Source: a virus (taxonomy: Duplodnaviria > Caudoviricetes). Taken from it: DNA of 57,211 nucleotides. The DNA lies in IMG/VR virus record IMGVR_UViG_3300025632_000017, positions 1-57,211 of that record; one strand, given 5' to 3'. A program made the position numbers and the translations under genes. Positions 1 through 57,211 of this stretch are shown here, one piece after another. The notes beneath the pieces were generated by a model. That model saw only the letters and a program-made list of their open reading frames with translations, searched no databases and was not told where the DNA came from. How positions within the stretch are numbered: the stretch's first letter is position 1; the number at the start of each line of letters is the position of its first letter.

Positions 1-405
1 CCTTCAAGTAACTGCTTACGCTGATGCTCCGGCAGAGAGAGAAGCATCGCTTCATAGTCGCCAGAGTCAGATAAGTACGGATTATCAAATAGAGAGGCGG
101 GAATAAAACGGCGCTTAAATAGAGGCTGACCTTCTTTACTATGCCCTTTAGGAAAGGTAATAGTTTCCCCAGAATCCAAATGCGTTGCCCAAAAAGCTTT
201 ACCTGCTCTTTCAGGGTCAATAAACATTTTCTTAACCCAAGCATGTCCTGCTCCTCCGGGGTTTGTTGTTGCTCTCATGTAGAGACCAAGAGTTGACGAA
301 TGTGCAGATCTCAAGCGAGATCTCATATAATCCCAAGCGTAAGGTGTAGTCCATTGAGTAAGTTCGTCAAATCCAATCCAGTTAAAAGCCTGACCCTGAT
401 AGCGT
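1..405 (+). repeat. Left copy of imperfect terminal overlap (matches 56807..57211)
   Basis: First 98 and last 55 nt identical, many substitutions in between. Confidence 0.95.
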
Positions 406-833
406 GTGACATCTGTATCCTTATCCAAGTATGACATCCAGAGGCGACCGCCTTGAGGTGATGTCCATTGAGACTTACGCTCTGACCATTTAATGCCCGG
501 AATAGCACGGGGATATAGCTCCTGAGACTTTTGTATTAGTTCCCTTAGTTCTTCTGTTGTGTGACGTACAAGTAGGCCACTAAAGTTCGGATCGTTCAAA
601 CCATGTAGCGGGTCAGCTAACATAGCGTAGGATTTGCCACCACCAGCTGCGCCACCATATAGAACCTCACGTTCTGATGCGCTCAAGAAGTATGACTGTG
701 GCCCTGGGTTTGGCTTGAATACTACCTCTTGTGCTAACTCTACGTCAAAATCAGCTGCCTTAACTGTAGCAGGTACGGTTTTAGGCTCTTCAATCTTCTC
801 TGATACTGTAGCTACCGACTCGGCCTTGCTCAA
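1..833 (-). CDS. terL: Terminase large subunit, N-terminal part (runs off the left edge, continues at the right end)
   Basis: Manual translation from TTG at 833: ...VFKPNPGPQSYFLSASEREVLYGGAAGGGKS (Walker A) ...WIGFDELTQW (Walker B); in frame with 56143..57132 after circularisation (~498 aa in total). Confidence 0.9.
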   Translation of the reverse strand, partial: MSKAESVATVSEKIEEPKTVPATVKAADFDVELAQEVVFKPNPGPQSYFLSASEREVLYGGAAGGGKSYAMLADPLHGLNDPNFSGLLVRHTTEELRELIQKSQELYPRAIPGIKWSERKSQWTSPQGGRLWMSYLDKDTDVTRYQGQAFNWIGFDELTQWTTPYAWDYMRSRLRSAHSSTLGLYMRATTNPGGAGHAWVKKMFIDPERAGKAFWATHLDSGETITFPKGHSKEGQPLFKRRFIPASLFDNPYLSDSGDYEAMLLSLPEHQRKQLLE

Positions 834-1212
834 GCTTTTCGATCTGCGAGAGCGCTTCTTTGAGCCGCTGGGTGAGCTTGCGTTTAATTGCAGCTGATTT
901 CTTACGTTTTTGCTCAACTTTAATTCTCTTATGTAATCCCATGTGTGAGATATATCGCCCAGTAGTCTTACTTAACCATATCGCTACTTCACGATAAGAA
1001 TACTGCTTTAAGTGCCGCTTGGCAAGCTCTAATGCTTCTAATTCTTCTGGAATAGGTTCTAACAGCCTGTCATTTTCTGGGTGAACTCTATAACCAAAAG
1101 GAACTTGCCGTAAGGAAACACGAGCTATTACATGCCACTCTTTCTCCTCACCCTTAAAAGGTTTTGGTAGCTCCCAAAAACCTAGATCTCTATCGTAGTC
1201 ATATTTTGACAA
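790..1212 (-). CDS. Hypothetical DNA-binding protein (HTH-like) upstream of terL
   Basis: VPFGY and YSYREVAIWLSKTTGRYISHMGL, basic C-terminal helix; packaging-gene context. Confidence 0.6.
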   Translation of the reverse strand: MSKYDYDRDLGFWELPKPFKGEEKEWHVIARVSLRQVPFGYRVHPENDRLLEPIPEELEALELAKRHLKQYSYREVAIWLSKTTGRYISHMGLHKRIKVEQKRKKSAAIKRKLTQRLKEALSQIEKLEQGRVGSYSIRED

Positions 1213-1596: not shown

Positions 1597-2178
1597 TTAT
1601 AGAGGATTATCGACTAGCTCATCATACGCTTTCCATATATCATCTACTTCTGTCTGTAGAGTATCTAGCGTATCGCCTAGTCCATCTGTAATAGTTGTAG
1701 CCTTATCTACTTGGCTACGCAAGTCTAAAAGCACCTTCTGCTGCTCTAAGATCTGTGACATGTTTGTGCTTAGCTGTGCAAGCTTCTGGTTCAAACCACG
1801 TACATCGTTGTCTGCAATAGCTTGCTCTAGTGTTTGAATACGAGATACAAGACTAGCTTCTAGTTCTTGTAGCTTTGTAATTAGCAAAGAATCTAGTACT
1901 ACTATCTCACCAGCTAGAGTGTTCTGAACATCTGTGAGGTTGCGCTGGGCTACAGTCTCTACCTTAGTTACTCTGGTAGTAATCTCCGCAGCTTTTGCAT
2001 TGAATGCAGCACTATTCTCCGCAACTTCTGCAATGCCAGCCTCTACACCGTAGAAACGCTGTAGTGTATCATAAGACCAATACACACCACCTGCAACTGT
2101 AGAAAGAACTGGAAGTGCCACAGCAACCATCCAGCCCTTAATGTTGTATCCACCTACGCTAAACTCAAAGTCCATCAT
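1597..2178 (-). CDS. Membrane-anchored coiled-coil protein
   Basis: N-terminal TM (WMVAVALPVLSTVAGGVYW) followed by long heptad-rich helix. Confidence 0.7.
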   Translation of the reverse strand: MMDFEFSVGGYNIKGWMVAVALPVLSTVAGGVYWSYDTLQRFYGVEAGIAEVAENSAAFNAKAAEITTRVTKVETVAQRNLTDVQNTLAGEIVVLDSLLITKLQELEASLVSRIQTLEQAIADNDVRGLNQKLAQLSTNMSQILEQQKVLLDLRSQVDKATTITDGLGDTLDTLQTEVDDIWKAYDELVDNPL

Positions 2179-3002
2179 TGTGTTGGCATTGCCCCATACT
2201 GATTAATGTATTCACCTGCTGCGTAAATCTCTGTAGCATTCTTCATCTCAGGTGTTAAGTAGCCCTGGAAGCCTGTACCAAAACCTGAGTCATCCCAAGT
2301 GATAACAAACTCATCAATAGCCTGTGTATATGTGATAGCTGTGTAGCTACCAACCATGTAGTTACCCTGTGCAGCGTAGTTGTCTACAGTGGCAGTAAGT
2401 TCATCGTTGTTAGCCGCAGCCATGAAAGCACCAGCCTGTTGAGCAAAAGTCTCTACAGCTGCTACTGCCTCGTTGTACTCATTAACCTCAGCAGCGTCTA
2501 AGCTGTATGCGTCTGTCTCAAGCATACCCTGTAGCTCAACCTGCTCAGGCTTAGTGTCTGCCTCAGATGCTACGGAAGCTACCTCAACTGCTGTCATAAC
2601 TACAGCTGTAGCAGCAGTCAGGTTATCTACTGCAGTGTTCAAGCTATTCATAGCCGCTGCATGTTCCTGCATAAACAACTGCTCAGCTGTACTAGCAATG
2701 GCATAGTCATGTTGCAGTACAAGGTCTTTAGCTTCTAGGTATGCACCTAGCTCATCTGTGGTAATAATACCCTCACTAAGTGCATCATCGTTAATAACAC
2801 CACCGATAGCAGCATAACCTACAGCACCTACAGTCATAACACCACTGTTAGTAATACGATCCTGAATATCACCGATAGAGGCGATAAGCATGTCAATCTT
2901 CTCTTGACCAGTTAGCTCGTAGTTAGTCTCTTGTGCGCTTGCTGCTGCGGAAACGCTCACTAAGGCTGAGCTTAGGAGTATTGTCTTCAACGATCTCTTC
3001 AT
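2175..3002 (-). CDS. Secreted acidic helical protein
   Basis: Sec signal MKRSLKTILLSSALVSVSAAASA-Q; 275 aa ORF. Confidence 0.7.
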   Translation of the reverse strand: MKRSLKTILLSSALVSVSAAASAQETNYELTGQEKIDMLIASIGDIQDRITNSGVMTVGAVGYAAIGGVINDDALSEGIITTDELGAYLEAKDLVLQHDYAIASTAEQLFMQEHAAAMNSLNTAVDNLTAATAVVMTAVEVASVASEADTKPEQVELQGMLETDAYSLDAAEVNEYNEAVAAVETFAQQAGAFMAAANNDELTATVDNYAAQGNYMVGSYTAITYTQAIDEFVITWDDSGFGTGFQGYLTPEMKNATEIYAAGEYINQYGAMPTQ

Positions 3003-3636
3003 CTGTGTCTTCCTCTCCTACCCTAAGTAGGGTATCCCAAAACGCTTTGTCTGTCTCATACCCAACGATATAAAGCGCTGGACTCTCTCTGTACTTCTTT
3101 ATCGCTGCCTTCCCCATAAGCAGCTTACCTGTCTTACTGTCGTTTATTGGACAGGGTGTATTCGCTAACATCATACTACGGAACACTATAGGGTCTTGGC
3201 ACAGTACAGATATAGCTGATACCTGTAACCCTAAGCCACCTACTTGCTGTGGTGCTCCTAAGAGCCTAGCGTTCTTACGTCTGTTACAAGCTTCATCCTG
3301 CTCCATCTTACCAGAGGATAAACCTAAGACGCTTATCTGTATCCCTGTAGAGCTTGGTAGTAAGCAGCTATCGTTACCGCCACCACCCATCATCGTAGGA
3401 GCTATCGCTGACATAACAGGGGCAGCTGAACCAGCACCCGTAGCGTTGTAGTTGTTAGTTACAGACTCCTCAGAGTTGTTACTGTCTACAGTGCTATTCT
3501 CGTTACTCGTAGAGAAGTCTCCAGTAACATCACCTGCCTGTGCAGTCATCCCCAATAACATCACGGAGATAAGGGTCACTGCACATAAGCTGAAGAGCGG
3601 CGTCTTTCTGACCGATGTATGTAAGAGTTTGTGCAT
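2923..3636 (-). CDS. Secreted Cys-containing hypothetical protein (start uncertain)
   Basis: Signal-like LISVMLLGMTAQA-G; several Cys (NDSC, ACNRRKNARLL, LCQDP, TPCP). Confidence 0.7.
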   Translation of the reverse strand: MHKLLHTSVRKTPLFSLCAVTLISVMLLGMTAQAGDVTGDFSTSNENSTVDSNNSEESVTNNYNATGAGSAAPVMSAIAPTMMGGGGNDSCLLPSSTGIQISVLGLSSGKMEQDEACNRRKNARLLGAPQQVGGLGLQVSAISVLCQDPIVFRSMMLANTPCPINDSKTGKLLMGKAAIKKYRESPALYIVGYETDKAFWDTLLRVGEEDTDEEIVEDNTPKLSLSERFRSSKRTRD

Positions 3637-3769
3637 CTAAGTTCCGTTGACATTTGGCATCATTAGCCGGGCAAGAGGAAGGTAAGACCACAGATGAAGT
3701 ACTACATGCAGTAGTTATACTCATACAAACCAGAAATGCAAGATTATTTAAAGTTCCCTGCCACGACAT
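3530..3769 (-). CDS. Small putative lipoprotein (79 aa)
   Basis: ATG at 3769 after GGGGTG; MSWQGTLNNLAFLVCMSITTA-C lipobox-like; 4 further Cys in the mature part. Confidence 0.55.
   Translation of the reverse strand: MSWQGTLNNLAFLVCMSITTACSTSSVVLPSSCPANDAKCQRNLDAQTLTYIGQKDAALQLMCSDPYLRDVIGDDCTGR
3713..3741 (-). promoter_or_regulatory. Putative promoter TTGCAT-N16-TATAACT
   Basis: Same geometry as four other sites in the genome. Confidence 0.45.
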
Positions 3770-3914
3770 TGCGGATTTCACCCCGTGCGATACCGATGTC
3801 ATGCAGTTCTTTGTCTGACATGTTAGTGAGGATCCAGTAGTCTGCACGTGCTTGTTGTGCCTTTTGTAAGCTTGCCAAGAAGTCTGTGAAGGTCTTAATA
3901 ATAAGTGTGAACAT
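3744..3914 (-). CDS. DUF1127 (YjiS-like) small protein, 56 aa; not in ORF track
   Basis: MFTLIIKTFTDFLASLQKAQQARADYWILTNMSDKELHDIGIARGEIRNVVAGNFK; L..(L/M)SD..L.DIG..R.EI signature; AGGA RBS. Confidence 0.8.
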   Translation of the reverse strand: MFTLIIKTFTDFLASLQKAQQARADYWILTNMSDKELHDIGIARGEIRNVVAGNFK

Positions 3915-3921
3915 TGTATTT

Positions 3922-3966
3922 TCCTATGTTATGCCCAGCATCATTGCTAGACTTGCATAGTTATAC
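3922..3966 (-). promoter_or_regulatory. Leader element TAACTAT / AGCAAT-N-ATGCTGG hairpin / AACATAGGA, shared with scaffold-gene leader
   Basis: Aligns with 52364..52410. Confidence 0.6.
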
Positions 3967-4014
3967 ATATGTTAGAACTATTTACCTCTACTAAGTTTGC
4001 ATACCCGCTATTCG

Positions 4015-4374
4015 TTATACGCCAGAGAAGGTCTCTGTTACAGTTAGGATAGTGTCTACATGTGCTGCTACACCAGGAGTAACACGTATCTGATCTCCTG
4101 CAGCCAGTACTAGCTCAATGTCAGAAAAGGTTATGTATTCACCTGCACCTAAGTTCTTACCCTCTAAGAAGTGTGACGTATATGTATCAGCTGCTACGTA
4201 CCACTCAATAGTAATATCTGTGTTACCTGAGAAGTTATGGACGTGAAGATAGCTTACCTCAGCCACACAGTTAGGAGGACACGTATATACATTCTCTGTA
4301 GTAGTCGTAGTGTTGTGACCCCATACAGAACGCCTACGAGCAGGTCTACCTTGGTGGTTGAGTGTAACAGCCAT
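4015..4374 (-). CDS. Hypothetical beta-rich protein, possibly virion
   Basis: 119 aa ORF; VYTCP...LVLAAGDQI pattern typical of small phage structural proteins. Confidence 0.6.
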   Translation of the reverse strand: MAVTLNHQGRPARRRSVWGHNTTTTTENVYTCPPNCVAEVSYLHVHNFSGNTDITIEWYVAADTYTSHFLEGKNLGAGEYITFSDIELVLAAGDQIRVTPGVAAHVDTILTVTETFSGV

Positions 4375-4679
4375 TACTCGTCAACCCACGCTTCATTCTC
4401 TGGGGTGTTAGGGTCATCAGCAATGAGTTGACCTTTAGCGTTACGAGCACGTTTCTTACCTGGAGGAGGTGTAGCTTTCTTAGCTTTCTTCTTAGGCTTA
4501 GTAGCTGCAATATCTGCTTCCTGACAAATAGCATTGACGTTAGGGTCTTTGCTCTGCACGTTGCCATAGTTGTCTTCACCAGCAGATTGATTACCCATGG
4601 AGTCCCATACGTAGCCATGCTCATCTACACGGTAGCCCTTAGCTTCCAGTGCTTCTTTATATTTATGGTAATATTTCAT
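4374..4679 (-). CDS. Hypothetical protein
   Basis: 101 aa, coupled to neighbours; C-terminal RARNAKGQLIADDPNTPENEAW motif. Confidence 0.7.
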   Translation of the reverse strand: MKYYHKYKEALEAKGYRVDEHGYVWDSMGNQSAGEDNYGNVQSKDPNVNAICQEADIAATKPKKKAKKATPPPGKKRARNAKGQLIADDPNTPENEAWVDE

Positions 4680-4861
4680 TACTTACCCTTCTTAAGTGGA
4701 CGTGCTGCTTGGTTAGATGCACCACAAGCTAAGCCACCTGTAGCGTAACCCATCTTCTTCTTAGCCATACCACCATAACTGTAACCCATCTTCTTAGCTA
4801 CTCCTGGTGCTTCTTTCTTAAGAGCCTTCATGCCTTTGTTCATCATACCACCTTTGTTCAT
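4679..4861 (-). CDS. Small basic M/K/G-rich protein
   Basis: 60 aa with repeated NKGG/YxxGG motifs. Confidence 0.6.
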   Translation of the reverse strand: MNKGGMMNKGMKALKKEAPGVAKKMGYSYGGMAKKKMGYATGGLACGASNQAARPLKKGK

Positions 4862-4868
4862 ACCTTCA

Positions 4869-5147
4869 TTACCACTTCACCTTATCTGCCCAGTAAGCTG
4901 CTGAGAGCTTACCCTTCTTAATGTTCTTTGCATGTCTAGCTTTAAAGCTTGCACGTTTCTTCTTCATGCGATCAGATTCACCCGCTTTAGGCTTGCCTGC
5001 TGTGGATGCTCCCTGCTCACCAAAGCGGATGAGCTTAATGGTGTCACCTTCCTTGGCAAGTACGGCGTGTGACTTGGTAGGGTGTTTAGGGGTACGCTTT
5101 GGTTTGTTGTAACCTGCAAACGTCTCTCCTCTATACTCAATAGACAT
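4869..5147 (-). CDS. Conserved basic phage protein
   Basis: KLIRFGEQG...RASFKARH...SAAYWADKVKW motif common in phage late regions. Confidence 0.75.
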   Translation of the reverse strand: MSIEYRGETFAGYNKPKRTPKHPTKSHAVLAKEGDTIKLIRFGEQGASTAGKPKAGESDRMKKKRASFKARHAKNIKKGKLSAAYWADKVKW

Positions 5148-5148
5148 A

Positions 5149-5394
5149 TTAAGCTTTACCTGCTCTGCTATTACGAGGGAAACTACGGTTCTTAGCTTTT
5201 GTAGTTACGGCTAGGTTAGAGCGCTTGTTATTCTTAGGGTTGCCATCCTTGTGATGTACGTCTTTGCCATCACCCTTTTTAACAACACCACCAGCAGAGA
5301 GTTTAGCACGAGCAGAGTTACGAGATGCACGTTTCTTTACCTGAGCAGGCTTACCTTGGTAGTTAGCATACTCTTTTTTATAGTCTCTAGCCAT
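5149..5394 (-). CDS. Small HNH-motif protein
   Basis: DGKDVHHKDGNPKNNKRSNL...NRS. Confidence 0.7.
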   Translation of the reverse strand: MARDYKKEYANYQGKPAQVKKRASRNSARAKLSAGGVVKKGDGKDVHHKDGNPKNNKRSNLAVTTKAKNRSFPRNSRAGKA

Positions 5395-5644
5395 AGTCTC
5401 GCTCTCTATCGGGGTCTAGTACGTCATTACGATCAAGTAGACCTTCTAAATACATCATTCGTTCTACGTAATCTAAGGTTAACTCTCTATCAGGGAAGAC
5501 TTCCTGTAGGTGTGCTCTAGTGTAGAACACTTCACTACGAGGAATGTGTACACGCTGGAAAGCTCTTACATCATTTGACGCTAAAGCAGAGTAAAACTCT
5601 TCTAATACGGAATCAGATGCGTATAGTTTTATTTGTTTAGACAT
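5387..5644 (-). CDS. Hypothetical protein (first late-strand gene)
   Basis: ATG at 5644 (MSKQIKLY); overlaps next gene start. Confidence 0.65.
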   Translation of the reverse strand: MSKQIKLYASDSVLEEFYSALASNDVRAFQRVHIPRSEVFYTRAHLQEVFPDRELTLDYVERMMYLEGLLDRNDVLDPDRERDYG

Positions 5645-5653
5645 GAATGTCAA
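5625..5653 (-). promoter_or_regulatory. Putative promoter TTGACA-N16-TAAAACT
   Basis: Perfect -35 and recurring geometry; overlaps the start of the 5387..5644 ORF. Confidence 0.5.
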
Positions 5654-5681
5654 TACTTTTATTATACAAAGGGGGAGAAAG

Positions 5682-5992
5682 TGGTACGTGCCGCAAACTA
5701 AGTATGAGGAGAGTGAGGGAGGAGAGAGTATTACTTAGAGTGTAACACGTACCAGTTAATGTAACGTTGTTTTATTTTATTATGGTTACATTAAATAAAG
5801 TATATACGAATGTTTATTACACTACAAGTGTTAAATTGTAATAATATGTGATTATAGAGTATTACTCTAGAGTTATAACTTACCTATGTCCACTATCCTT
5901 TTTGTAACACTCTCTTATAGAGTAATACTCTTCTTTATTTATTACTTTACTTTAGTTTTAACTCTAAGAGTAATACTCTGTGTGCTCCTGCT
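5682..5992 (-). ncRNA. Candidate structured RNA with anti-Shine-Dalgarno loop
   Basis: Downstream of promoter 5997..6025; ORF-free; hairpins 5682-5690/5746-5754, 5698-5704/5732-5738 and 5756-5765/5784-5793; loop reads UACUCUCUCCUCCCUCACUCUCCUC on - strand. Confidence 0.45.
5725..5979. repeat. Repeated palindrome AGAGTAWTACTCT
   Basis: Full copies 5856-5868, 5919-5931, 5967-5979; partial 5725-5735. Confidence 0.85.
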
Positions 5993-5996
5993 CCGC

Positions 5997-6025
5997 AGTT
6001 ATACCCATAGAAACACCCTGGTCAA
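5997..6025 (-). promoter_or_regulatory. Putative promoter TTGACC-N16-TATAACT at head of the late strand
   Basis: Near-consensus hexamers in intergenic DNA. Confidence 0.65.
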
Positions 6026-6919
6026 CCCCTAAAATGCACATACTGCAATTATTGTAACATTTTGTTACTGTAATACAGGGTTACTGCTTAGGGTACCTGC
6101 TCAAGTGGTCCATAGGGGGTGTCTGTCTCACATAGTGGTACTAACTAGGTCCACATCGGCCCTACTTTACTTAGGTTTACATAAGGCATCGCTTATATAC
6201 GAACTAAAAAACCACTTCTGTGTATTTGTACATATACGTATACCCTACGTACCCCCCATGGAGCCTGCCCCCTCCCCTCTTTATACTCTTACTATCACGC
6301 CAAACACTGTTTTTATTGGCTTTTTTATTGTCTCCCCTCCCCTGCCCTAACAAATTAAAGATAGGCTATAGGATAAAGCATTGTTTTTATTGCATTAGGG
6401 AAGTGATAGGTAGGCACTTACTTTGATATATTGTATATTCTGCCACCCTATCCCCCGATTGTTCAAGATTGTACACCTAGCCGTGCACTTAACACACAAG
6501 AGAACAATGCGAAACAATCCGGCTCTAATGTTCTGACTTGTATTTTTCTGCTCTTGATTGTTCTGACTATCCCGCAATCAATACAATGAAAAACATTTGT
6601 ATACCAAAACTCAAAAGTGGATCTTATTTGGCAGGGCTTTTTTGTGCCATTATATAGTCAAACAAATTGCTGCACCAAATCATGCTCTGGAATTGCCCTA
6701 TTGAATTGCTCAAAAGTGATTTGGTTTTATGCGCAGCTGCACCCGTTAAAACTCTTTAAATAGGCCAAAGCTGCAATTTGTGCCGGTAATCCCCTGGAAA
6801 TCTTCATTTGTAACTATATGAAATTAAACAATAATCGAAATAAGATGAAATTATTCTGCAAAAAGTTATCTTTTTTGCTTGCAATGTTTTGTGGGATGTT
6901 GTCTTAGTTGTTTCACGGT

Positions 6920-7208
6920 TTAAGACCTAAGCAATACGGAACAGGCGGCGATGCCTAAGAATTGCGGCGATGGTCAGAAACTCTGAGGCTTGAAACAGTG
7001 CCGCACGTTATTTGACATTGATGGATCCACCCCAAACCTAGGCGCAAGCCGATAATGGGAAACACTAGGGGAAAGCTTTGACGGACTAGCCTGCGGGTCT
7101 CTGTTTAACTAGCAATATGATTAACGCCTAATAAAGAGGCGCAAGGCTTAAACCTAGGTTAGTTTTTAGTGAGGGGCGGCATACAATCGCCCTTCCTATA
7201 AGTTAACC
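6920..7208 (+). promoter_or_regulatory. Structured early leader (boxA-like element, GNRA hairpin, long terminal stem)
   Basis: GTTATTTGACAT 7007-7018; TCAGA-AAC-TCTGA; GGC-GCAA-GCC; long imperfect stem 7157-7208. Confidence 0.45.
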
Positions 7209-7228
7209 AAATCAATGGAGTAAGACAA

Positions 7229-7819
7229 ATGACAAACTATGTAAGAAACATCCTTAAGACATACCGCATTGCCACAGTGTCAGACGTAGCAGATGGCGTT
7301 GAATGGTATGATAGAGCAAAGCGCATGGCGGCATGGATTGCAAAAGAGACTGGCATTCCAGAGACAACAGTGATCGGCGCTATGGCGGCTCTATCGCCTA
7401 ACAACAGATGGGAACGGAATTGCAAGGACGCTCTAACTATGTGCCAAGCGTGGATCAATGGCGACACAACAGATGACTTCAAAGTGTCCTGCTATAACAC
7501 GATGAAGCAAAAGGCGTGGTCTATCTTAGAGGATGACCTGACAACAGATGAAGACATTCTTTCCCGCCTCAATGGGCAGAAAATCCGCTCTTTCTACTCT
7601 AATATTCGTGGATTGGATGAAGTAACTATTGATGGTCACGCATTGAATATTGCAAGGGGCAAGCGTGAAGGCCTTACATCTGACAAAACAAACATGGGCA
7701 AGAAACAGTATCGTGAATTGCAAGCCGCCTATGTAACAGCCGCCAAGCGTGTGAAGGTTAAGCCGCATGAATTGCAAGCTATCACATGGACAACATGGAA
7801 ACGTATCCACAACATATAA
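7229..7819 (+). CDS. Conserved early phage protein
   Basis: 196 aa; GVEWYD, AALSPNNRWERN, KIRSFY, VTIDGH, LQAITW motifs; GGAG RBS. Confidence 0.75.
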   Translation: MTNYVRNILKTYRIATVSDVADGVEWYDRAKRMAAWIAKETGIPETTVIGAMAALSPNNRWERNCKDALTMCQAWINGDTTDDFKVSCYNTMKQKAWSILEDDLTTDEDILSRLNGQKIRSFYSNIRGLDEVTIDGHALNIARGKREGLTSDKTNMGKKQYRELQAAYVTAAKRVKVKPHELQAITWTTWKRIHNI

Positions 7820-7831
7820 ATGAGGAATAAT

Positions 7832-7948
7832 ATGACAAAAATATTCAACGTATCAACACGCAAGGTTGGCGGCATCCGCTTTATTAAGATCGGCAAACTA
7901 TGCTTTAGCTATTGCGTAACAACCAAATTCAAACCTATCGGAGGATAA
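7832..7948 (+). CDS. Small early protein (38 aa); not in ORF track
   Basis: GAGGA RBS; MTKIFNVSTRKVGGIRFIKIGKLCFSYCV... Confidence 0.6.
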   Translation: MTKIFNVSTRKVGGIRFIKIGKLCFSYCVTTKFKPIGG

Positions 7949-7954
7949 ACTATC

Positions 7955-8194
7955 ATGGAACGCTATTTCGTAAAAGACATGCGCAGACTTACTAACTCAC
8001 CATCTGGAAATCCACGCTTCAAATTTATCGTGGCGGATCGGTACGGTGAGACAAAAGTATTGCACACAAAAGCTGATGCGATGTTTAACTATAAGATCAC
8101 GCACGGCTGGGCCAATCGTATGATTGAGGGCTATACACACGCCACCAGCCGCAACATAATCCTTGACCATGCAGACATATCGGAGAAATTTTAA
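7955..8194 (+). CDS. Hypothetical early protein
   Basis: GGAGG RBS; NSPSGNPRF motif. Confidence 0.7.
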   Translation: MERYFVKDMRRLTNSPSGNPRFKFIVADRYGETKVLHTKADAMFNYKITHGWANRMIEGYTHATSRNIILDHADISEKF

Positions 8195-46641: not shown

Positions 46642-49605
46642 TTACTCTCCTAGTTTAGCTTTAAGCTCGTCAATCTGAGCTTGTTGTTCCTTCATGGCTT
46701 CGATCAAGAGAGCCACCATGTTTCCGTACTTAACTGACTTGATGCCTTGGTCATTTGTGCTGACTACATCCGGCAGTACAGCTTCCACTTCCTGAGCGAT
46801 TACGCCGACCTCTGAGTTGCCATTCTCGATCCAATCGAATGAGACACCACGCAAAGACTTAACGGCATCCAGAGAGCCTGTGAGCGTCTCTACGTTTGTC
46901 TTGAGAGTAGCGTCTGAGGTGGTGTTGAAGTTGGCAGCGTTTACTGTGCCTGAGAAGTAGGCGTCTTTGAAGGCTACAGCTGATAACCCTAAGTCAATAG
47001 CACTACCTCTAGAATCACCGTCATTGTTCACGGGGTAAATACGATCTGCACCATTGTCGAAAAGTAGCTTGGTATTGGAGTTTCCTAAGTACAGTCTGGA
47101 TTGGCCGTTTGCTAGTTTAGCCCCAAGGTCTCCTGCATATACGCCGTCTTTATAAATACCAAGAACTGGCCCATCATTTCCATTACGGCCAAAGGTGCCT
47201 GTACGGCCTTGATATGCAGAAGAGAAAAACAACCCATCATTTCTAATGGCAAAACCATTTGTAGTATTTCCTACACCCGGCTGTGTTGAACTAGACTGAC
47301 CCACAAGCAGGTTGCCGCTGGCATCAAATGTTGCAAAATCGCTTGTAACATTACCAATAACTAATTGATCAGAGCCTCCTAATTTCATCTTCATCTTGTT
47401 AGAAGATGCAACAACTTCCAGAGAGGAAGCAGATCCACCTGTTGCCCCGCTATTTGCAAAAAGACTTAGTAACGATAGCGTGTCCCCAGAGTCAGGAGCG
47501 CCAACAGTCAGTCTAGAAGAAGCAGACGTATGGTTAATCGCCACATTCCCGTTGCTCAAGATGCGCATGGCTTCGGAGCCGTTTGCAGTAAAGCGCATAG
47601 AATTATCAGAGTTAAAGTAAGCCAATTGACCAACATCAATGTCGGCACTATCACCTAGGTTTACATAACTAGCCCCGCCAGATGTTGTAGCCTCAAGGGT
47701 TAAAGCAGCGTAATCACCAGAACCTTTTACATGAAGTTCTGTTGAGGCACTTGTAGTTCCCAGCCCAAGTCTCTCCGTACTCGCATCCCAGAAGAACTTT
47801 GGTGTCGTGCCTGTGTCCTCGTAGAAGCTGATGTCGCCGTTTGCCGCTACAAGTAAACGCTGTGCAGGTGTTGCTCCTGTCTTTACTCTGAAAATACCGT
47901 TGGCACTTACTTCTGCACCATCTACATTGTTTTCAGGCGTAAAATAACGATCATCGTTAAACTTCAGTTTATCACCTGCGGTTAGTGTAATATCCCCATC
48001 CACAGTCAGCCCATCAGCCGTCACTGTGCCAGTTACGTCAATACCTGTGGAGGTGGTGGCGAGTTTAGGAGAGTTGGCATGGTATAAAGAAACTGCAGCA
48101 TTAGGATTTATATACATACCAGTAGAATTACCGGCAGTATTCATAAATACTTGATCTTCCGCTCTAATTTGAAGAGAATATCCGGCGGTATTTTCTTTAA
48201 TAATAGATGTATTGCCGTCAGAATAGATTTCTAAATCTCCGCCTGACCCAAAGATGGCTTTGTCGTTGTCACCGAAGGACAAGTTGCCAGTCATGCTATC
48301 GCCAGACTTAGAAACTTTAGAAGCAATATTGTTAGCAGTGGTAGTAGCAAAGTTAGGGTCATCACCTAATGCTGCTGCTAGTTCGTTTAATGTGTCTAGT
48401 GTGCCAGGAGCAGAATCTACAAGGTTAGCTACTGCGGTATCTGCATAGCCTGTGTAATAACTACCGTGCTGCCCGTCTAGTGTATCTGCATCTACGTTAA
48501 GAGCATCAATATCAGCTTTGGTTTGGTCAGCTGTCGCCCCGCTCTCAATGCCATTGAGCTTTGTGTGATCGGCATCTGTAAATACGTTGCTGTCAGTCGC
48601 GCTTTCTACAAGTGCGCGGATTTCGGCGGCTGTTTGATCGGCTGTAGCTCCGGCCTCAATACCTGCAAGTTTAGATATATCTCCAGCAGTTGTGAACTTG
48701 TTAGTAGTAGATGTATCACTAATATCGTCAGCATCAAGTACTACAGCACCTGTCTGTGTGTTTACACTGTCAACAGTATTTACTTCAGCACCTGTCTCAA
48801 TACCAGAAAGTTTTGTCTGCTCAGCATCAGTGAAAGCATTAGTGTTAGCGTTATTCTCGTAGGCTGTTTTAATCTCAGCATCTGTCTGGTCAGCTGTAGC
48901 GCCTGCTTCTACACCATCTAGTTTAGTACCATCTGTAGCTACATCTCTGCCATCTACAGTACCAGTAACTGTAATATTGCCAGTAACATCAATACCTGCA
49001 GCAAAGTCTACGTTAGCGTCAAACTGCCCACCAGTAACTTTAGATACTGTGTCAGCTAGAGTAAAAGCCTTAAATGCTACAATGTTAATCTCGTCACTGA
49101 GTGCAGCACCTGCAGTAAGCGTTACTGTGTTACCACCTGATACAGAGTAGTCTTGGCTGTTGCCCTCAAGAACAATACCATTCATGAAGACAATAATGTT
49201 ATCTTCAAAGAAGGCTAACTGATTGCTGTTATCATCATTACCAGTAAATACTGTCTGACCAGCTGTAGCTGTGAAGTAGAAGTAATCAATAGATCTACTA
49301 CCAAGGTTCTCAATATCAGTAGCAGAAGTAGTAATAAAAACTTCTTGTTGACCCGATAGATTGAGTAAGGAACCTGTTGAGCTTTCCTCTAACGAGCGAG
49401 ACATTGTAGTGCCACTGTGTGTATATACACCTGTGCCTACTTCCCAGTCATTAGTATCTACAATAGTGTATCTAACGGAGTTGCCATCAAGGATACCACC
49501 ATCAGAGAAAGTCTGGAAACTCTCTACTGCAGAGCCAAGCGTAATTGTGCCAGTACCCGTAGTAGCAGATGTAACCTTTACACGGTTAGCAAACTTAATC
49601 GTCAT
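46642..49605 (-). CDS. Long tail fibre with C-terminal S74 intramolecular chaperone
   Basis: [27 protein letters not shown], coiled-coil end. Confidence 0.9.
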
Positions 49606-51431: not shown

Positions 51432-52358
51432 TTATTTCTTAGACATATCATAAATAAATTTACCAGAGCGCTGAGCTTCAAAGATCTCATCATTGCGCTT
51501 CTCGTATTCTTTAAGGCTCATCTTAGCTACTTGTGATTCACTGAGATACCTTGAGGAGTCATCTGCATCCAATGCAGTACGACCTTTAGCTTTAACTGAG
51601 GATGCAGCTGCTTTGTCTGAGCTAGAGCTACTCTTAGTCTTGATACCTTTATCTGACTTGTAGAGATCAATAACACGTGCAACAGACTTAGCGTCTTCAC
51701 TGTTCTCGTATAGTGCATCCTGTACAACTTTAGGCTGCTTTTCTGCCCATGTATGAAACGCATCATCAGCACGAATCTCTTGAAAGTCAGGGTGCATAGA
51801 GAGTAACTCAGCTTCAGCCTTATCTCGTTTAGCAGATGCACGTAACTCTTCAATCTCTTTAAGACGCCCGTCTAAATCAGCAGAACGTTCATTAGCTTTC
51901 TTATCAGCAATAGCCTCTACGATACCTGCAACGTCTGGGTACTTCTTAGCCCATGCTTCTACTTCGTCTTCTGACTTAGGTAGTACAAGTTCATTCTTTG
52001 TAGCTGCATCTAGTTGTGACTTAAGCTTATCAAGCTGTGATTGAAACTCTTTCTCTTTCTCTTGAGTGTGTCGCCGTAGATCACCGTAACGCTTCTTGAA
52101 GTTCTTCTCTTCTGCACTCAGATCTTCATCTTGTGCTTCAGCTTGTGGTTCTTCTTCTTGTTCGGTAACACTCTCTGCCTGAACTGTGCGCTCGACAGGC
52201 TCTTCGCTACGGGATTCCTCTTCAGCAGTTTCTTCTTCTGTTTCATCTGTCTGAATCCCTGCTTGTTTAAACAGAGCTTTTAGTTCCTCTTCATCACGTT
52301 GTACACGAGATATGTTACGATTATGGGACGCTGAGTCCGTCTGAATTGCTTCTGCCAT
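51432..52358 (-). CDS. Putative scaffolding protein
   Basis: Acidic N-terminus, FKKRYGDLRRH coiled coil, directly upstream of capsid. Confidence 0.7.
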   Translation of the reverse strand: MAEAIQTDSASHNRNISRVQRDEEELKALFKQAGIQTDETEEETAEEESRSEEPVERTVQAESVTEQEEEPQAEAQDEDLSAEEKNFKKRYGDLRRHTQEKEKEFQSQLDKLKSQLDAATKNELVLPKSEDEVEAWAKKYPDVAGIVEAIADKKANERSADLDGRLKEIEELRASAKRDKAEAELLSMHPDFQEIRADDAFHTWAEKQPKVVQDALYENSEDAKSVARVIDLYKSDKGIKTKSSSSSDKAAASSVKAKGRTALDADDSSRYLSESQVAKMSLKEYEKRNDEIFEAQRSGKFIYDMSKK

Positions 52359-52426
52359 TTTCTTTCCTTATGTTGGGGCCAGCATTATTGCTGGGTAGCC
52401 TTATAGTTATTTGGTAGTCTTAGTAG

Positions 52427-53827
52427 TTACTTCTTCTTTTTCATCAAGCCGCCTTTATTTAGTCCTGATATACCATAGGCAGTGTCTAAAGAAGCACCAC
52501 CTGCTGTTGTATCATCTGATGCAGTAGAAGTACTTGTACCTGTTGTTATACCACTTGTGGTCTCTTTAGCAGCAGCTGTTTTTGCTTCAGCGGCAGCCCG
52601 TCTATCTCTCATCATGGATTCATGTGCGTTATTCCCACCCCCATTATTTTGTGGAGGCTGCTCAGTAGGTTGCGATGTAGGAGTGCTAACAGGGTCATTA
52701 CTCGTGCTGTTTGCAAAGCCAGGCTCAAGAACTTCGCCTGTTGCATCGTCTACAAGAACACCGTTTCTGTAAGATTTACCATCTCCTTTTGTTAGGATAT
52801 TGGCAAGGGACTCTGTAATACTATTACCTTTGTATGTCTCACTACCCGTAAGTACTTCAATACCAGTAGGTGCTTCTCTAAGTTTAGCAGAGCCGTCTGC
52901 GTTCTTACCTTGCATAACGTTGCGAATTTCTTCTAGCTTTTTAGCTTGGGAAGTATTGCCAGTATTTGTAAGAGATTCAATCTGACTATCAAGGCCTTTA
53001 AGCATAGAGTTTTTCTGTAGTTTCATTAGACCTTTTACACCAAGTCCTGCTAACGGACCTAACATAAGAGCTGCACCATAGGATAGGCCTGTACCCATAC
53101 CCTCAAGTTCTTCGTAAGTTGATAGAAACTTTTCAGGTGTAGCGACAGTAGGGTCAGACCAGTCAATAGCTTCTGCTGGAGGAGGTGGTGGTGTACTATC
53201 ATTGTCATTAGAGTTATTAGATGTAGCAGTGCCTGTTGCTGCTGCTGTTTCTACTTGAGTAGATACCTGTTCAGCCGCAGTAGCTTCTTGAGTAGCCCCA
53301 TCAGGAATAGGTGTTAAAGGTTTACCATTCATAAACTGAATATAATACTTTGTTCCATCTGCTCCAATAAAGGTACGAATCTCAAAGCCGCTGCTATCAG
53401 ATCCTGTGGCAACGTGGTACGGTAGAGCGGCTTCACCGCCTTCAGCATAACCAGAGATAAAACCACCTTGGTTCATCATAGGTTGCTCTTCTGGAGAGTC
53501 TTCAACCATCTGTAACTCAGACACGTCAAAAGGTAATTCATCACCACCCATCTCCATGCCAGTCTCGCCGACAGGCTCACCACCGATGCGTCCATTAGCT
53601 TCCATATCAGCAAAGCCTCGCTTGGCTTCATTACGGATGTCCTCAAAGAACTTAACGCCAAAGAAGCGTACCACATCAGCAGGTACGACATACTCACCTT
53701 CACTCAGTTGAGCAGGGATGTCATCACGTACTTCTTCTGGCATAGAGCCTGTAGGTACTTCATTGCCTGACACAGGGTCTACACGTTCACCTTCATCACC
53801 GAAGGCCGTTTCCATTTGTTCATCCAT
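52427..53827 (-). CDS. Head-region hypothetical protein
   Basis: DDIPAQLSEGEYVVPADVV motif; low-complexity C-terminus. Confidence 0.7.
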   Translation of the reverse strand: MDEQMETAFGDEGERVDPVSGNEVPTGSMPEEVRDDIPAQLSEGEYVVPADVVRFFGVKFFEDIRNEAKRGFADMEANGRIGGEPVGETGMEMGGDELPFDVSELQMVEDSPEEQPMMNQGGFISGYAEGGEAALPYHVATGSDSSGFEIRTFIGADGTKYYIQFMNGKPLTPIPDGATQEATAAEQVSTQVETAAATGTATSNNSNDNDSTPPPPPAEAIDWSDPTVATPEKFLSTYEELEGMGTGLSYGAALMLGPLAGLGVKGLMKLQKNSMLKGLDSQIESLTNTGNTSQAKKLEEIRNVMQGKNADGSAKLREAPTGIEVLTGSETYKGNSITESLANILTKGDGKSYRNGVLVDDATGEVLEPGFANSTSNDPVSTPTSQPTEQPPQNNGGGNNAHESMMRDRRAAAEAKTAAAKETTSGITTGTSTSTASDDTTAGGASLDTAYGISGLNKGGLMKKKK

Positions 53828-56142: not shown

Positions 56143-57211
56143 TTAATAGCCGAAGCTGGGATCTGCCGCCTGAAAGCCAGAGCGTTGTTTTGCGGGATTA
56201 TAGTCCCAGATGCTACTGCGTGGACGTGTCATAATACCGTAGCGTAAAGCGTCATACAAGTGATCTTCTGCATGAGTATCTACATCTTCTGGATTCTTCT
56301 TGTCCAGTGGAATGCTTGGTATCTGCGCAATGGTATTTGTACAGTTACTCATAAATACAAGACGAGGTTTATCTGTAAACTCATCTACCTGTAAACGCCT
56401 GTGTATTTCGTTCTTACCTGCGACACGTGAACCTCTTGACCGATCAGAGGGACGCCAACGACAACCCTTCATATTCATCTGCTCTGCCAAGCTAGGTCCA
56501 GTGTCGCCACGGTTGTGCCATAAAGAACTATCCAGCACCCCGTATCTTATTGTACCATCATGAGCTTCTGCTTCCAGTATAAGATCTGCTAGATCAGAAG
56601 CTGTTACTTTAGAGACATACATCTCACGGTACACAATTACTTGTTCATCAGGTGCTACAGCAAACCAGAGAACACCAGTGTAACTACCATAACCGTAATC
56701 GCAAGACCTAAACTTTGCCCAAGAGTCAGGTATCTCAAATGAGTCCACGACATGTATGTTTCTGTCAAACTCTGGAAAAGCCGCACCTTCATTAATATCC
56801 CAGTTACCTTCAAGTAACTGCTTACGCTGATGCTCCGGCAGAGAGAGAAGCATCGCTTCATAGTCGCCAGAGTCAGATAAGTACGGATTATCAAATAGAG
56901 AGGCTGGAATAAAGCGGCGCTTAAATAGAGGCTGGCCTTCTTTACTATGACCTTTAGGGTAGGTGATCGTTTCACCAGACTCAAGATGCGTTGCCCAAAA
57001 AGACTGGTTCGATCTTGAAGGGTCAATAAACATCTTTTTAACCCAAGCATGTCCACTTCCTCCGGGGTTTGTTGTTGCCCTCATGTAGAGGCCTAATTTA
57101 TTAGAGTGTGCAGACCTCAAGCGAGATCTCATATAATCCCAAGCGTAAGGTGAAGACCATTGAGTAAGTTCGTCAAATCCAATCCAGTTAAAAGCCTGAC
57201 CCTGATAGCGT
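56143..57211 (-). CDS. terL: Terminase large subunit, C-terminal part
   Basis: RATTNPGG, LFDNPYL, LLEGNW, DYGY, EDHLYDALRYG. Confidence 0.93.
   Translation of the reverse strand, partial: RYQGQAFNWIGFDELTQWSSPYAWDYMRSRLRSAHSNKLGLYMRATTNPGGSGHAWVKKMFIDPSRSNQSFWATHLESGETITYPKGHSKEGQPLFKRRFIPASLFDNPYLSDSGDYEAMLLSLPEHQRKQLLEGNWDINEGAAFPEFDRNIHVVDSFEIPDSWAKFRSCDYGYGSYTGVLWFAVAPDEQVIVYREMYVSKVTASDLADLILEAEAHDGTIRYGVLDSSLWHNRGDTGPSLAEQMNMKGCRWRPSDRSRGSRVAGKNEIHRRLQVDEFTDKPRLVFMSNCTNTIAQIPSIPLDKKNPEDVDTHAEDHLYDALRYGIMTRPRSSIWDYNPAKQRSGFQAADPSFGY
56807..57211 (+). repeat. Right copy of imperfect terminal overlap
   Basis: Aligns without gaps to 1..405. Confidence 0.95.

What the first reader, a model, noticed from the sequence alone, without database searches (positions are those of the whole stretch)
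3744..3914. Unannotated phage-encoded DUF1127-like small protein, possible partner of the anti-SD RNA
Seen: a 56-aa ORF missed by the track, with LTNMSDKELHDIGIARGEI, a clear RBS and its own leader. Known: DUF1127 proteins are widespread in alphaproteobacteria; CcaF1 of Rhodobacter sphaeroides binds RNA, is co-transcribed with the CcsR anti-SD sRNAs and affects RNA processing and turnover. Inference: the phage may carry a DUF1127 plus anti-SD RNA pair on the same strand about 1.8 kb apart, i.e. a phage version of a host post-transcriptional module. Unlike the host locus, the two are not adjacent, so the link is speculative.
Basis: partly seen in the sequence, partly recalled or inferred. Interest (0 to 1): 0.75.

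Follow-up and report, generated by a model that had tools for sequence, protein, structure and literature searches.

The report
Phage-encoded DUF1127 small regulator gene
This marine phage carries a real, strongly conserved gene for a 56-residue DUF1127 protein, a kind of small bacterial regulator, which all its cultured relatives on roseobacters also carry and which does not depend on the nearby RNA hairpin.

Summary
The ORF at 3744-3914 (minus strand, 56 aa) is real. It passes Pfam DUF1127 (31.9 bits against a cut-off of 23.3). It is under strong purifying selection (median dN/dS 0.048).

**Distribution**
- All 11 cultured HMO-2011-type roseophages carry the gene.
- At least 336 IMG/VR stretches encode a relative.
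- 0 of 4 tested group members on other hosts have it.
- DUF1127 genes also occur in unrelated phages of Rhodobacterales and Rhizobiales: SIO1, P12053L, CRP-403, phiM12 and Phosso.
- One GenBank record, CRP-603 gp69, already names the gene, so it is a new member of a known kind.

**Regulation.** The gene has its own conserved TAWAACT promoter-like box and a structured leader.

**The hairpin link.** The CU-loop hairpin at 5672-5759 is a genuine conserved RNA element on the same strand. Another agent of this scan has already followed it up on this same window. The proposed partnership with it is not supported:
- 8 of 12 complete genomes have the gene without any such hairpin.
- The hairpin matches no Rfam family.
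- The window protein is arginine-poor, at 5.4%.

**Most likely function.** It is probably a phage mimic of host small DUF1127 regulators, acting on a host partner such as the PhoR sensor kinase or on RNA turnover. This is inferred, not shown.

The parts
3744..3914 (-). Coding sequence of the 56-aa DUF1127 small protein (stop codon at 3744-3746)
   Evidence: ORF list. Pfam PF06568 at 31.9 bits against cut-off 23.3. dN/dS 0.048. Homologues in 11 of 11 cultured roseophages of the group.
3922..3925 (-). AGGA Shine-Dalgarno-like site 7-8 nt before the ATG
   Evidence: Read from the sequence. AACATAGGAAA is conserved in window-type leaders.
3924..3960 (-). Leader stem-loop: inner hairpin 3933-3952 with an AGCAAU-N-AUGCUGG core, closed by an outer CUAUG/CAUAG stem that reaches the ribosome-binding site
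   Evidence: RNA fold of 3915-3962 (minus): -14.9 kcal/mol, z -5.27, 0 of 200 shuffles as good. Stem sequence varies with pairing kept across relatives. The exact core motif occurs only here and at 52379-52392.
3959..3965 (-). TATAACT -10-type promoter-like box of the gene's own leader
   Evidence: Strictly conserved column block TATAACTA in 20 diverse leaders. A TAWAACT box lies 30-78 nt before the ATG in 79 of 112 unique leaders, against 102 of 5000 random 56-nt windows. Only one exact 10-mer copy in the window. Function as a promoter is inferred.
3997..4007 (-). Conserved CGGGTATGCAA block just after the stop of the upstream gene, 31 nt before the -10-type box
   Evidence: Conserved in the leader alignment. 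Single exact copy in the window. Role unknown.
3713..3741 (-). TTGCAT-N16-TATAACT promoter-like site starting 3 nt after the DUF1127 stop codon
Evidence: Read from the sequence. GTATAACTAC at 3711-3720. Together with the upstream box it brackets the gene like a separate unit.
4015..4374 (-). Conserved upstream neighbour, a 119-aa protein of unknown function
   Evidence: ORF list. A 357-363-nt gene precedes the DUF1127 gene in CRP-207, -13, -603, -345, -2, -1 and -9. No Pfam or PHROG hit.
5672..5759 (-). CU-loop ('anti-SD-like') hairpin, the proposed partner; probably not functionally tied to the gene
   Evidence: Fold -23.7 kcal/mol, z -6.76, 27-nt loop. Of 17 consensus pairs, 7 show compensatory changes. 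Model R1 scores 87.5 bits on the minus strand and 31.1 on the plus strand.

Best explanation
**What it is.** The ORF is a genuine gene for a three-helix, 56-residue DUF1127-family protein. It is a lineage-wide accessory gene of HMO-2011-type phages that infect roseobacters. It sits among small genes upstream of the small terminase subunit and is bracketed by promoter-like boxes, so it is probably expressed as its own, separately regulated unit, like a moron.

**How it most likely works (inferred, not shown).** The phage protein imitates the host's own small DUF1127 regulators and binds their cellular partner to retune host stress and nutrient responses during infection. Of the two documented DUF1127 modes, I rate protein-protein binding to a sensor kinase (PhoR being the documented case) somewhat more likely for this arginine-poor subtype, at about 0.3. 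I rate CcaF1-like RNA binding or modulation of RNA turnover at about 0.25. The protein does not require the CU-loop hairpin 1.8 kb upstream.
For: **Shown: identity and constraint**
- Pfam DUF1127 above the cut-off.
- dN/dS 0.048.
- Conserved core L29, L37, D39, G41, R44 over 54 phage and bacterial sequences.
- AlphaFold2 model with helices at 2-30, 34-40 and 44-53, mean pLDDT 73.7.

**Shown: distribution**
- 10 roseophage records by tblastn, plus CRP-9 by Pfam, make 11 of 11 cultured roseophages found by portal homology.
- 0 of 4 tested relatives on other hosts have it: HMO-2011, HTVC115P, HTVC033P and RHph_N3_19.
- At least 336 IMG/VR stretches encode a relative.
- The phage copies form essentially one clade. 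The label needs 2 changes, and the only bacterial row inside is one long branch.

**Shown: recurrence in unrelated phages of hosts rich in DUF1127**
- SIO1, P12053L, CRP-403, phiM12 and Phosso score 42-57 bits.
- In three of them the gene lies between mazG and the ribonucleotide reductase gene.

**Shown: own regulatory signals**
- Conserved TAWAACT box in 79 of 112 unique leaders, against 2% background.
- Structured leader, z -5.3.
- A second promoter-like site right after the stop codon.

**From the literature**
- DUF1127 proteins of 24-72% 'homology' from four species all restore pstS control in an Agrobacterium mutant and bind PhoR (PMC12501420, abstract and sections 26 and 32 read).
- CcaF1 binds RNA (PMC8034643, passages read).
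- YjiS binds membrane proteins and not RNA (PMC11707872, passages read).

**Weak.** Contigs from RNA libraries of two studies cover the ORF (X7 record 20; X9 record 29). This shows presence only.
Against: - No partner was identified and nothing here tests binding.
- The PhoR preference rests on indirect points only: low arginine in the window subtype (5.4%), cross-species complementation in the literature, and the mazG/RNR neighbourhood in other phages. The role of arginines in PhoR binding is not established in what I read.
- Other subtypes of the same phage clade are arginine-rich (CRP-603 13.9%, CRP-9 17%). RNA binding therefore stays open.
- Damping the Pho regulon is not an obvious benefit for a marine phage.
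- The Rhizobium phage RHph_N3_19 of the same group lacks the gene although its host lineage has DUF1127 proteins.
- The promoter is inferred from conservation only. There is no clear -35 at 16-18 nt, and the general sigma-70 scan did not list this site.
- Structure searches gave nothing significant: Foldseek best E 3.9 and PDB sequence search best E 0.33.
Confidence: 0.5

Rival explanations
1. The DUF1127 protein and the CU-loop hairpin RNA form a phage version of the host CcaF1-CcsR module: the protein binds or matures the anti-SD-like RNA, which then covers ribosome-binding sites.
For: - Both lie on the same strand of the same arm.
- In an independent pattern scan, 47 of 47 hairpin loci with at least 3556 nt downstream carry a DUF1127 ORF 1.5-4.4 kb downstream. 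The 6 loci without one have at most 2386 nt downstream.
- The pair persists while the genes between them vary, and across proteins only about 40-50% identical.
- The host module is real in the data: ar14 lies next to DUF1127 in L275 and L261.
- In S. meliloti the cuckoo RNAs come from the 5' UTR of the DUF1127 gene (PMC8034643 passage). An upstream position is therefore not alien.
- The hairpin loop carries UCUCCUCCCU, matching 8 of 9 positions of the cuckoo motif.
Against: - The gene is present in 11 of 11 cultured roseophages of the group. The 47 of 47 figure is therefore expected without any functional link.
- 8 of 12 complete genomes lack any comparable CU-loop hairpin: model R1 on whole records and a generic whole-genome scan that did recover the positive controls.
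- Of 19 IMG/VR loci with at least 4.6 kb upstream, 7 lack the hairpin and 1 has only a weak variant hit.
- Near-identical protein subtypes occur with and without the hairpin.
- The two features are not adjacent. They are 1758 nt and six ORFs apart, and the gene has its own promoter-like box.
- No ar14 or other Rfam match.
- Bacterial DUF1127 genes linked to ar14 are not the nearest relatives of the phage clade, ranking 16-18 of 78.
- The window protein is arginine-poor.
- Unrelated phages carry DUF1127 in other gene neighbourhoods. I did not scan them for the hairpin.
Confidence: 0.13
2. The protein is an RNA-binding regulator whose operator is the hairpin in its own leader. The same hairpin sits in the leader of the gene at 51432-52358. 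This would give autoregulation plus co-regulation of a virion-assembly gene.
For: - The leader module is shared between the two genes: ATAACTAT, then a CCAGCAAU-N-AUGCUGG hairpin, then the AACAUA(A)GGAAA ribosome-binding site.
- The exact hairpin core occurs only at these two places in 57 kb.
- The second copy is also seen in relative L039.
- CcaF1 binds its own transcript (PMC8034643 passages).
Against: - Other phage subtypes have different leaders, and no second copy was found within 10 kb.
- A shared leader may simply mark one promoter class.
- The second hairpin alone is not unusually stable, z -0.73.
- The window protein is arginine-poor.
Confidence: 0.1
3. The protein is a membrane-associated small protein of the YjiS type. 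It would act on envelope or lysis-related proteins encoded just downstream.
For: - The N-terminal 16 residues are rich in hydrophobic residues spaced as for an amphipathic helix (reading of the sequence; helix 2-30 in the model).
- YjiS is membrane-localised and binds inner-membrane proteins (PMC11707872 passages).
In CRP-345 and CRP-1 an endolysin and a spanin lie a few genes downstream.
Against: - No transmembrane segment was tested or evident.
- The N-terminus is not conserved in sequence across subtypes.
- Gene neighbourhoods differ among phage lineages.
Confidence: 0.1
4. The ORF is a chance open frame or a non-coding leader of the downstream genes.
For: It is very short, and overlapping ORFs exist in other frames.
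Against: - Pfam hit above the curated cut-off.
- dN/dS 0.048, with third-position variation dominant.
- Intact in all relatives examined.
Confidence: 0.01

Closest known systems
CcaF1 (RSP_6037) of Rhodobacter (Cereibacter) sphaeroides and the CIN1 locus (DUF1127 gene plus CcsR/cuckoo/ar14 sRNAs)
   Same: Same Pfam domain. Both are small proteins. The host clade is related (Rhodobacterales). A structured RNA with a CU-rich, anti-SD-like loop lies on the same strand of the same phage arm.
   Different: - The RNA is not adjacent: it lies 1758 nt away with six ORFs between.
- The gene has its own promoter-like box.
- The hairpin is a single stem with a 27-nt loop and matches no ar14 model.
- The window protein has 5.4% Arg, whereas CcaF1 is described as arginine-rich.
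- Phage copies are not nearest to the ar14-linked bacterial copies.
- Most phages with the gene have no such RNA.
Small DUF1127 proteins SDP1-3 of Agrobacterium tumefaciens and YjiS of E. coli and Salmonella (sensor-kinase binders: PhoR, SsrA)
   Same: Same domain, covering nearly the whole protein of about 50 residues. The literature reports that very divergent members substitute for one another in pstS control (PMC12501420 section 26).
   Different: This one is phage-encoded and has a lower arginine content. Binding to any kinase is untested. The benefit to a phage is unclear.
CRP-603 gp69 ('DUF1127 domain-containing protein', UAW59236.1) and the 'hypothetical protein' homologues in CRP-1, -2, -3, -9, -207, -212, -235, -345 and -738
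   Same: Orthologous position upstream of the small terminase subunit, on the same strand. Identity to the window protein is 38-58%. All those tested pass the Pfam cut-off.
   Different: The window belongs to an arginine-poor subtype. That subtype is known only from metagenomic contigs at 80-100% identity.
Phage morons (accessory genes with their own promoter inserted between core genes)
   Same: A small gene with a promoter-like box before it and another right after it. Its presence depends on the host lineage.
   Different: No terminator was found after it. It is fixed in the whole roseophage group rather than sporadic.

Membership tests
DUF1127 (Pfam PF06568) | Match to the family HMM above the curated gathering score | tested here: met
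   31.9 bits against 23.3, E 1.1e-7, profile positions 2-37 of 37. 31.6 bits in the six-frame search.
DUF1127 (Pfam PF06568) | Small protein (about 45-75 aa) in which the domain covers most of the length | tested here: met
   56 aa, with the domain at residues 13-48. The size range comes from a PMC8034643 passage.
DUF1127 (Pfam PF06568) | Conserved core L..L.D.EL.DIGI.R..I | tested here: met
   L29, L37, D39, G41 and R44 are invariant. I40, I42 and I47 are conserved in at least 90% of 54 phage and bacterial sequences.
DUF1127 (Pfam PF06568) | Unusually high arginine content (family mean 14% according to PMC12501420 section 32) | tested here: not met
   3 Arg in 56 residues, or 5.4%; net charge +1; pI 8.2. 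This is a hallmark of the family, not a Pfam criterion. Other phage subtypes reach 13-17%.
DUF1127 functional classes (RNA binder or sensor-kinase binder) | Binding to RNA, or to PhoR or another sensor kinase | not testable with these tools
CIN1 locus (CcaF1 plus CcsR/cuckoo RNAs) | DUF1127 ORF directly adjacent to, and in one transcript with, cuckoo RNAs | tested here: not met
   The hairpin lies 1758 nt upstream with six ORFs between. The gene has its own promoter-like box. In bacterial loci L275 and L261 the ar14 RNA starts 28 nt after the gene.
CIN1 locus (CcaF1 plus CcsR/cuckoo RNAs) | RNA recognised as ar14/cuckoo (hairpins with CCUCCUCCC loops) | tested here: not met
   No Rfam match in the window at E up to 1, nor in 5550-6000 at E up to 10. 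The loop holds 8 of the 9 motif letters in a 27-nt loop.
CIN1 locus (CcaF1 plus CcsR/cuckoo RNAs) | Orthology of the protein with CcaF1-type DUF1127 proteins | tested here: inconclusive
   The tree uses 57 columns and is poorly resolved. The phage clade is nearest to Sneathiella rows. Rows linked to ar14 rank 16-18 of 78 by path length. No named CcaF1 sequence was available.

The most novel reading that the evidence does not exclude
Phages of Rhodobacterales and Rhizobiales have repeatedly captured the host's small DUF1127 regulators as a general takeover tool. In one roseophage lineage the capture is coupled to a phage-made, cuckoo-like anti-SD RNA. That lineage would then carry a complete, physically dispersed CcaF1/CcsR-type riboregulatory module that reprograms host translation and RNA turnover.
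Probability: 0.12. Interest if true: 0.8.

Novelty: new member of a known kind. Interest (0 to 1): 0.42.

Why it matters
DUF1127 proteins are among the most common uncharacterised small proteins of Alpha- and Gammaproteobacteria. Their mode of action, RNA binding or sensor-kinase binding, is still debated.

Several results here point to a conserved host target worth hijacking:
- A whole, globally abundant group of marine phages keeps such a gene.
- Unrelated phages of related hosts carry one too.
- Group members on SAR11 and SAR116 hosts do not.

The arginine-poor phage subtype is a natural variant that could help separate the two proposed activities.

In my two full-text searches for DUF1127 no listed title or abstract treats a phage-encoded DUF1127. 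Two key papers on these phages have no occurrence of the term in their main text. Their supplements were not visible to me.

Tried and rejected
**Searches that found nothing or little**
- Rfam found nothing for the hairpin or anywhere in the window. No tRNAs were found.
- The generic sigma-70 and terminator scan listed neither the gene's leader box nor a terminator after the gene.
- PHROGs gave only a weak hit to a family of unknown function, phrog_26566, E 0.013.
- Neighbouring proteins have no Pfam family. PHROGs names only the small terminase subunit for 1215-1586.
- The PDB sequence search and Foldseek against the PDB gave nothing significant. A few SAM domains appear at E 6-9, which is not evidence.

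**Ideas that did not hold**
- SD sequestration in the leader. With a transcript start assumed 5 nt after the box, only 1 of 79 leaders has half or more of the SD zone paired. The strong 5'-UCUCC/GGAGA stem seen in CRP-207-type leaders would exist only in read-through transcripts, so I make no claim.
- The hairpin loop as regulator of the DUF1127 ribosome-binding site. Predicted duplex -6.8 kcal/mol, rank 46 of 78, median -7.4.
- Arginine content does not differ by hairpin status: median 8.85% in 44 unique proteins with the hairpin, 8.0% in 42 without.

**RNA libraries.** All four runs laid are contigs. They cover the ORF and the hairpin, but they cannot show strand, ends, level or even transcription. 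Parts without cover mean nothing.

**Limits of the tree and the sampling**
- The tree has few columns. Independent origins of the phage groups are suggested but not shown, since starred branches force only one origin.
- For speed, the tree left out every second IMG/VR row.
- Not tested for DUF1127: HTVC103P, HTVC104P, phiM6, MW202701 and the other Rhizobium phages listed.

Full report
**Observation.** The minus strand of the window holds an ATG-started ORF at 3744..3914 that encodes 56 residues and contains the quoted motif.
- An in-frame TAG four codons before the ATG fixes the start. One stored gene call of 74 aa, P0001, reads that TAG as Q and is a caller artefact.
- AGGA lies 7-8 nt before the ATG. 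A 100-nt gap separates the ORF from the upstream 119-aa gene.
- Pfam places residues 13-48 on positions 2-37 of the 37-position DUF1127 profile at 31.9 bits, against a cut-off of 23.3. A six-frame search gave 31.6 bits.
- Among 33 unique window-type coding sequences from related contigs, variable sites by codon position are 27/15/45 of 56. Median dN/dS against the window is 0.048 over 26 pairs with dS above 0.05.

The ORF is therefore a real protein-coding gene.

**What the window is.** It is an IMG/VR virus record of 57,211 bases, rated 100% complete and 'linear'.
- Its closest cultured relative is Roseobacter phage CRP-207, at 94% DNA identity over part of 2000-8000.
- Genes run rightwards from about 7.2 to 26.9 kb and leftwards elsewhere.
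- The DUF1127 gene lies in the leftward arm. Upstream are six small ORFs. Downstream are three ORFs of unknown function, the small terminase subunit (1215-1586, PHROG 2538), a large terminase subunit that the window ends appear to cut, and the portal gene.

**Distribution in the phage group.**
- tblastn with the protein finds 10 records, all Roseobacter CRP phages. All ten have intact ORFs of 47-92 aa.
- Portal homology lists 11 roseophages in the group. The eleventh, CRP-9, has a DUF1127 gene (gp62) at 32.8 bits (33.6 bits).
- The four other group members I tested on whole records have none at E up to 0.1: HMO-2011 on SAR116, HTVC115P and HTVC033P on SAR11, and Rhizobium phage RHph_N3_19.
- The gene is annotated as a CDS in 10 of the 11. 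It is named DUF1127 only in CRP-603 (gp69) and is unannotated in CRP-13.
- The large protein collection returned 52 close relatives (59-100% identity) from metagenomes. Of these, 51 have a precomputed PF06568 hit and 3 are named 'YjiS (DUF1127 family)' by JGI.

**DUF1127 in other phages.** Weak tblastn hits with two further queries were confirmed by Pfam at 42-57 bits in the following:
- Roseobacter phage SIO1, where the ORF is unannotated;
- Celeribacter phage P12053L;
- Roseobacter phage CRP-403 (Autographiviridae);
- Sinorhizobium phage phiM12;
- the jumbo phage Phosso.

In SIO1, P12053L and CRP-403 the gene lies between mazG (in SIO1, gp19 at that position) and the ribonucleotide reductase gene. 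Those three proteins form a starred clade although the phages belong to two families. The Sinorhizobium phage copies sit nearest a Rhizobiaceae copy.

**Relation to bacterial copies.**
- The bacterial search found at least 219 relatives. All of those listed are Alphaproteobacteria apart from a few MAGs, and the best has 54% identity.
- On a tree of 173 rows and 57 columns, poorly resolved, the HMO-2011-type copies are essentially one clade. The label needs 2 changes, and the only bacterial row inside is the long branch L246.
- The nearest bacterial rows are from Sneathiella.

**Own regulatory signals.** An alignment of 20 diverse leaders shows two conserved blocks. One is CGGGTATGCA, just after the stop of the upstream gene. 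The other is a strictly conserved TATAACTA, followed by a hairpin whose stem sequence varies while pairing is kept.
- A TAWAACT box lies 30-78 nt before the start in 79 of 112 unique leaders, against 102 of 5000 random 56-nt windows.
- In the window both blocks are single exact copies.
- The leader folds at -14.9 kcal/mol, z -5.3.
- Three nucleotides after the stop codon a TTGCAT-N16-TATAACT site begins.
- The gene thus looks like a separately promoted unit. This is inferred from conservation, since no 5' end was seen.
- The same leader module precedes the gene at 51432-52358. That lead came from note e1-6240205.

**The proposed partner RNA.** The hairpin is real.
- On the minus strand it folds at -23.7 kcal/mol, z -6.8, with a 27-nt CU-rich loop.
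- In 14 diverse copies, 17 consensus pairs include 7 with compensatory changes. There are 29 G-U cells against one A-C cell, so the structure is read on the DUF1127 strand.
- Model R1 scores 48-98 bits on that strand and 22-34 bits on the other.
- CRP-603 and CRP-2 have a longer hairpin with a similar 25-nt loop.
- An independent pattern scan of IMG/VR gave 118 or more stretches. Of the 70 new loci, 53 are confirmed by R1. At least 11 of the 53 are contigs already fetched.
- All 47 loci with at least 3556 nt downstream have a DUF1127 ORF on the same strand, 1.5-4.4 kb downstream. The other 6 have at most 2386 nt downstream.

**Why this does not show a partnership.** The gene is present throughout the group whether or not the hairpin is there.
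- Whole-record R1 searches find the hairpin in CRP-207 (70.7 bits, 4.4 kb upstream of gp64) and weakly in CRP-603 and CRP-2. They find none in CRP-13, -212, -738, -235, -345, -3, -1 or -9.
- A generic whole-genome scan recovered both positive controls and found nothing comparable in those eight phages.
- Of 19 IMG/VR DUF1127 loci with at least 4.6 kb upstream, 11 have the hairpin, 7 have none and 1 has only a weak variant hit.
- Close protein relatives differ in hairpin status. L136 has it and CRP-13 lacks it; CRP-603 has it and CRP-1 lacks it.
- The hairpin matches no Rfam family, whereas ar14 is found right after DUF1127 genes in bacterial loci L275 and L261.
- The gene's ribosome-binding site is an average predicted target of the loop, ranking 46 of 78.
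- A promoter-like TTGACA-N16-TAAAACT lies between the hairpin and the arm's genes (note e1-6240206; conserved TTGACA seen). Even co-transcription is therefore uncertain.

**The protein itself.**
- AlphaFold2 with a 54-sequence alignment gives three helices (2-30, 34-40, 44-53) at mean pLDDT 73.7.
- No solved relative was found by sequence or by fold.
- The window protein has 3 arginines (5.4%), net charge +1 and pI 8.2. Medians are 8.6% for viral copies, 12.7% for the bacterial copies I fetched and 14% for the family in the literature (PMC12501420 section 32).

**Literature read.**
- CcaF1 binds RNA and acts with RNase E on its own ccaF1-ccsR transcript (PMC8034643, passages).
- YjiS is membrane-associated and shows no RNA binding (PMC11707872, passages).
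- The Agrobacterium proteins bind PhoR. Copies from S. meliloti, R. sphaeroides and E. coli all restore pstS control (PMC12501420, abstract and sections 26 and 32).

**Mechanism.** The firm part is that this is a conserved, separately signalled accessory gene restricted by host lineage, encoding a DUF1127 protein.

The inferred part is that it mimics the host's DUF1127 regulators and engages their partner. I lean to a protein partner such as PhoR for this arginine-poor subtype (about 0.3) over RNA binding (about 0.25). My reasons are the cross-species complementation in the literature and the nutrient-stress gene neighbourhood (mazG, RNR) in other phages. None of this is direct evidence.

**Expression.** Contigs from RNA libraries of two studies cover the ORF and the hairpin. 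Contigs show presence only.

**Novelty.** The family is known, and one GenBank record already labels the orthologue. In the listings of my two full-text searches for DUF1127 no title or abstract treats a phage-encoded DUF1127. The term does not occur in the main text of PMC9038755 or PMC6918029; I could not see their supplements. The hairpin on this same window was already followed up by another agent of this scan (e1-6240203). All earlier notes returned concern this window, not other DNA.

Noticed in passing
window 5672-5759 (-); L002 1069-1167; L010 1081-1178; CRP-207 record 53431-53520 (-): The CU-loop hairpin is a widespread conserved RNA element. It has an invariant UACGUG/CACGUA outer stem, a covarying inner stem and many G-U pairs on the minus strand. 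CRP-603 and CRP-2 carry a longer variant. A conserved TGTTACAYT lies 5-6 nt before the stem. Another agent has already followed it up (e1-6240203).
   Followed up: partly
window 5625-5653 (-); L002 about 1190-1220; L008 about 875-903; L011 about 920-948: A conserved TTGACA sits 0-3 nt before the annotated ATG of the arm's first ORF (5387-5653). A TAAAACT-type box follows 16 nt later, inside the first codons. This looks like a promoter that overlaps the annotated start. If so, the hairpin lies upstream of it and the start of that ORF is doubtful.
   Followed up: partly
window 52359-52410 (-): The gene at 51432-52358 (PHROG 13678, unknown function) has nearly the same leader module as the DUF1127 gene. 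The module is an ATAACTAT box, a CCAGCAAU-N-AUGCUGG hairpin and an AACAUAAGGAAA ribosome-binding site. The exact hairpin core occurs only at these two places in the window.
   Followed up: partly
window 3-917 (-) and 56143-57210 (-): The large terminase subunit appears to be cut by the window ends. Both open-ended ORFs match Terminase_6N, at profile positions 2-139 and 91-214. The record is therefore a permuted, probably circular or terminally redundant genome, although it is classed as linear.
   Followed up: partly
L319 1459-1635; L320 1459-1638; L321 1459-1638: A mazG - DUF1127 - ribonucleotide reductase arrangement is shared by Zobellviridae phages (SIO1, P12053L) and the Autographiviridae phage CRP-403. 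The DUF1127 proteins are 79-85% identical. The SIO1 copy is not annotated in AF189021.1.
   Followed up: partly
P0001 (window leader 3915-3968): A stored gene call of the window's own protein is 74 aa long because the in-frame TAG in the leader was read as Q. This is an artefact of an alternative-code gene call on a short contig, not evidence of recoding.
   Followed up: no
L004 5546-5710 (CRP-13 record about 49313-49477): The DUF1127 ORF of CRP-13 (54 aa, Pfam 31.1 bits) is not annotated in MW514247.1. It overlaps the annotated start of the small terminase subunit.
   Followed up: yes
window 6225-6360 (+): Two CCCCTCCCCT tracts lie on the plus strand in the inter-arm region. No significant fold was found (z -1.6).
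   Followed up: partly
L086 and L088 (one 80,374-base IMG/VR contig): Two identical DUF1127 loci lie about 55 kb apart on one contig. This suggests a concatemeric assembly of a genome of about 55 kb.
   Followed up: no
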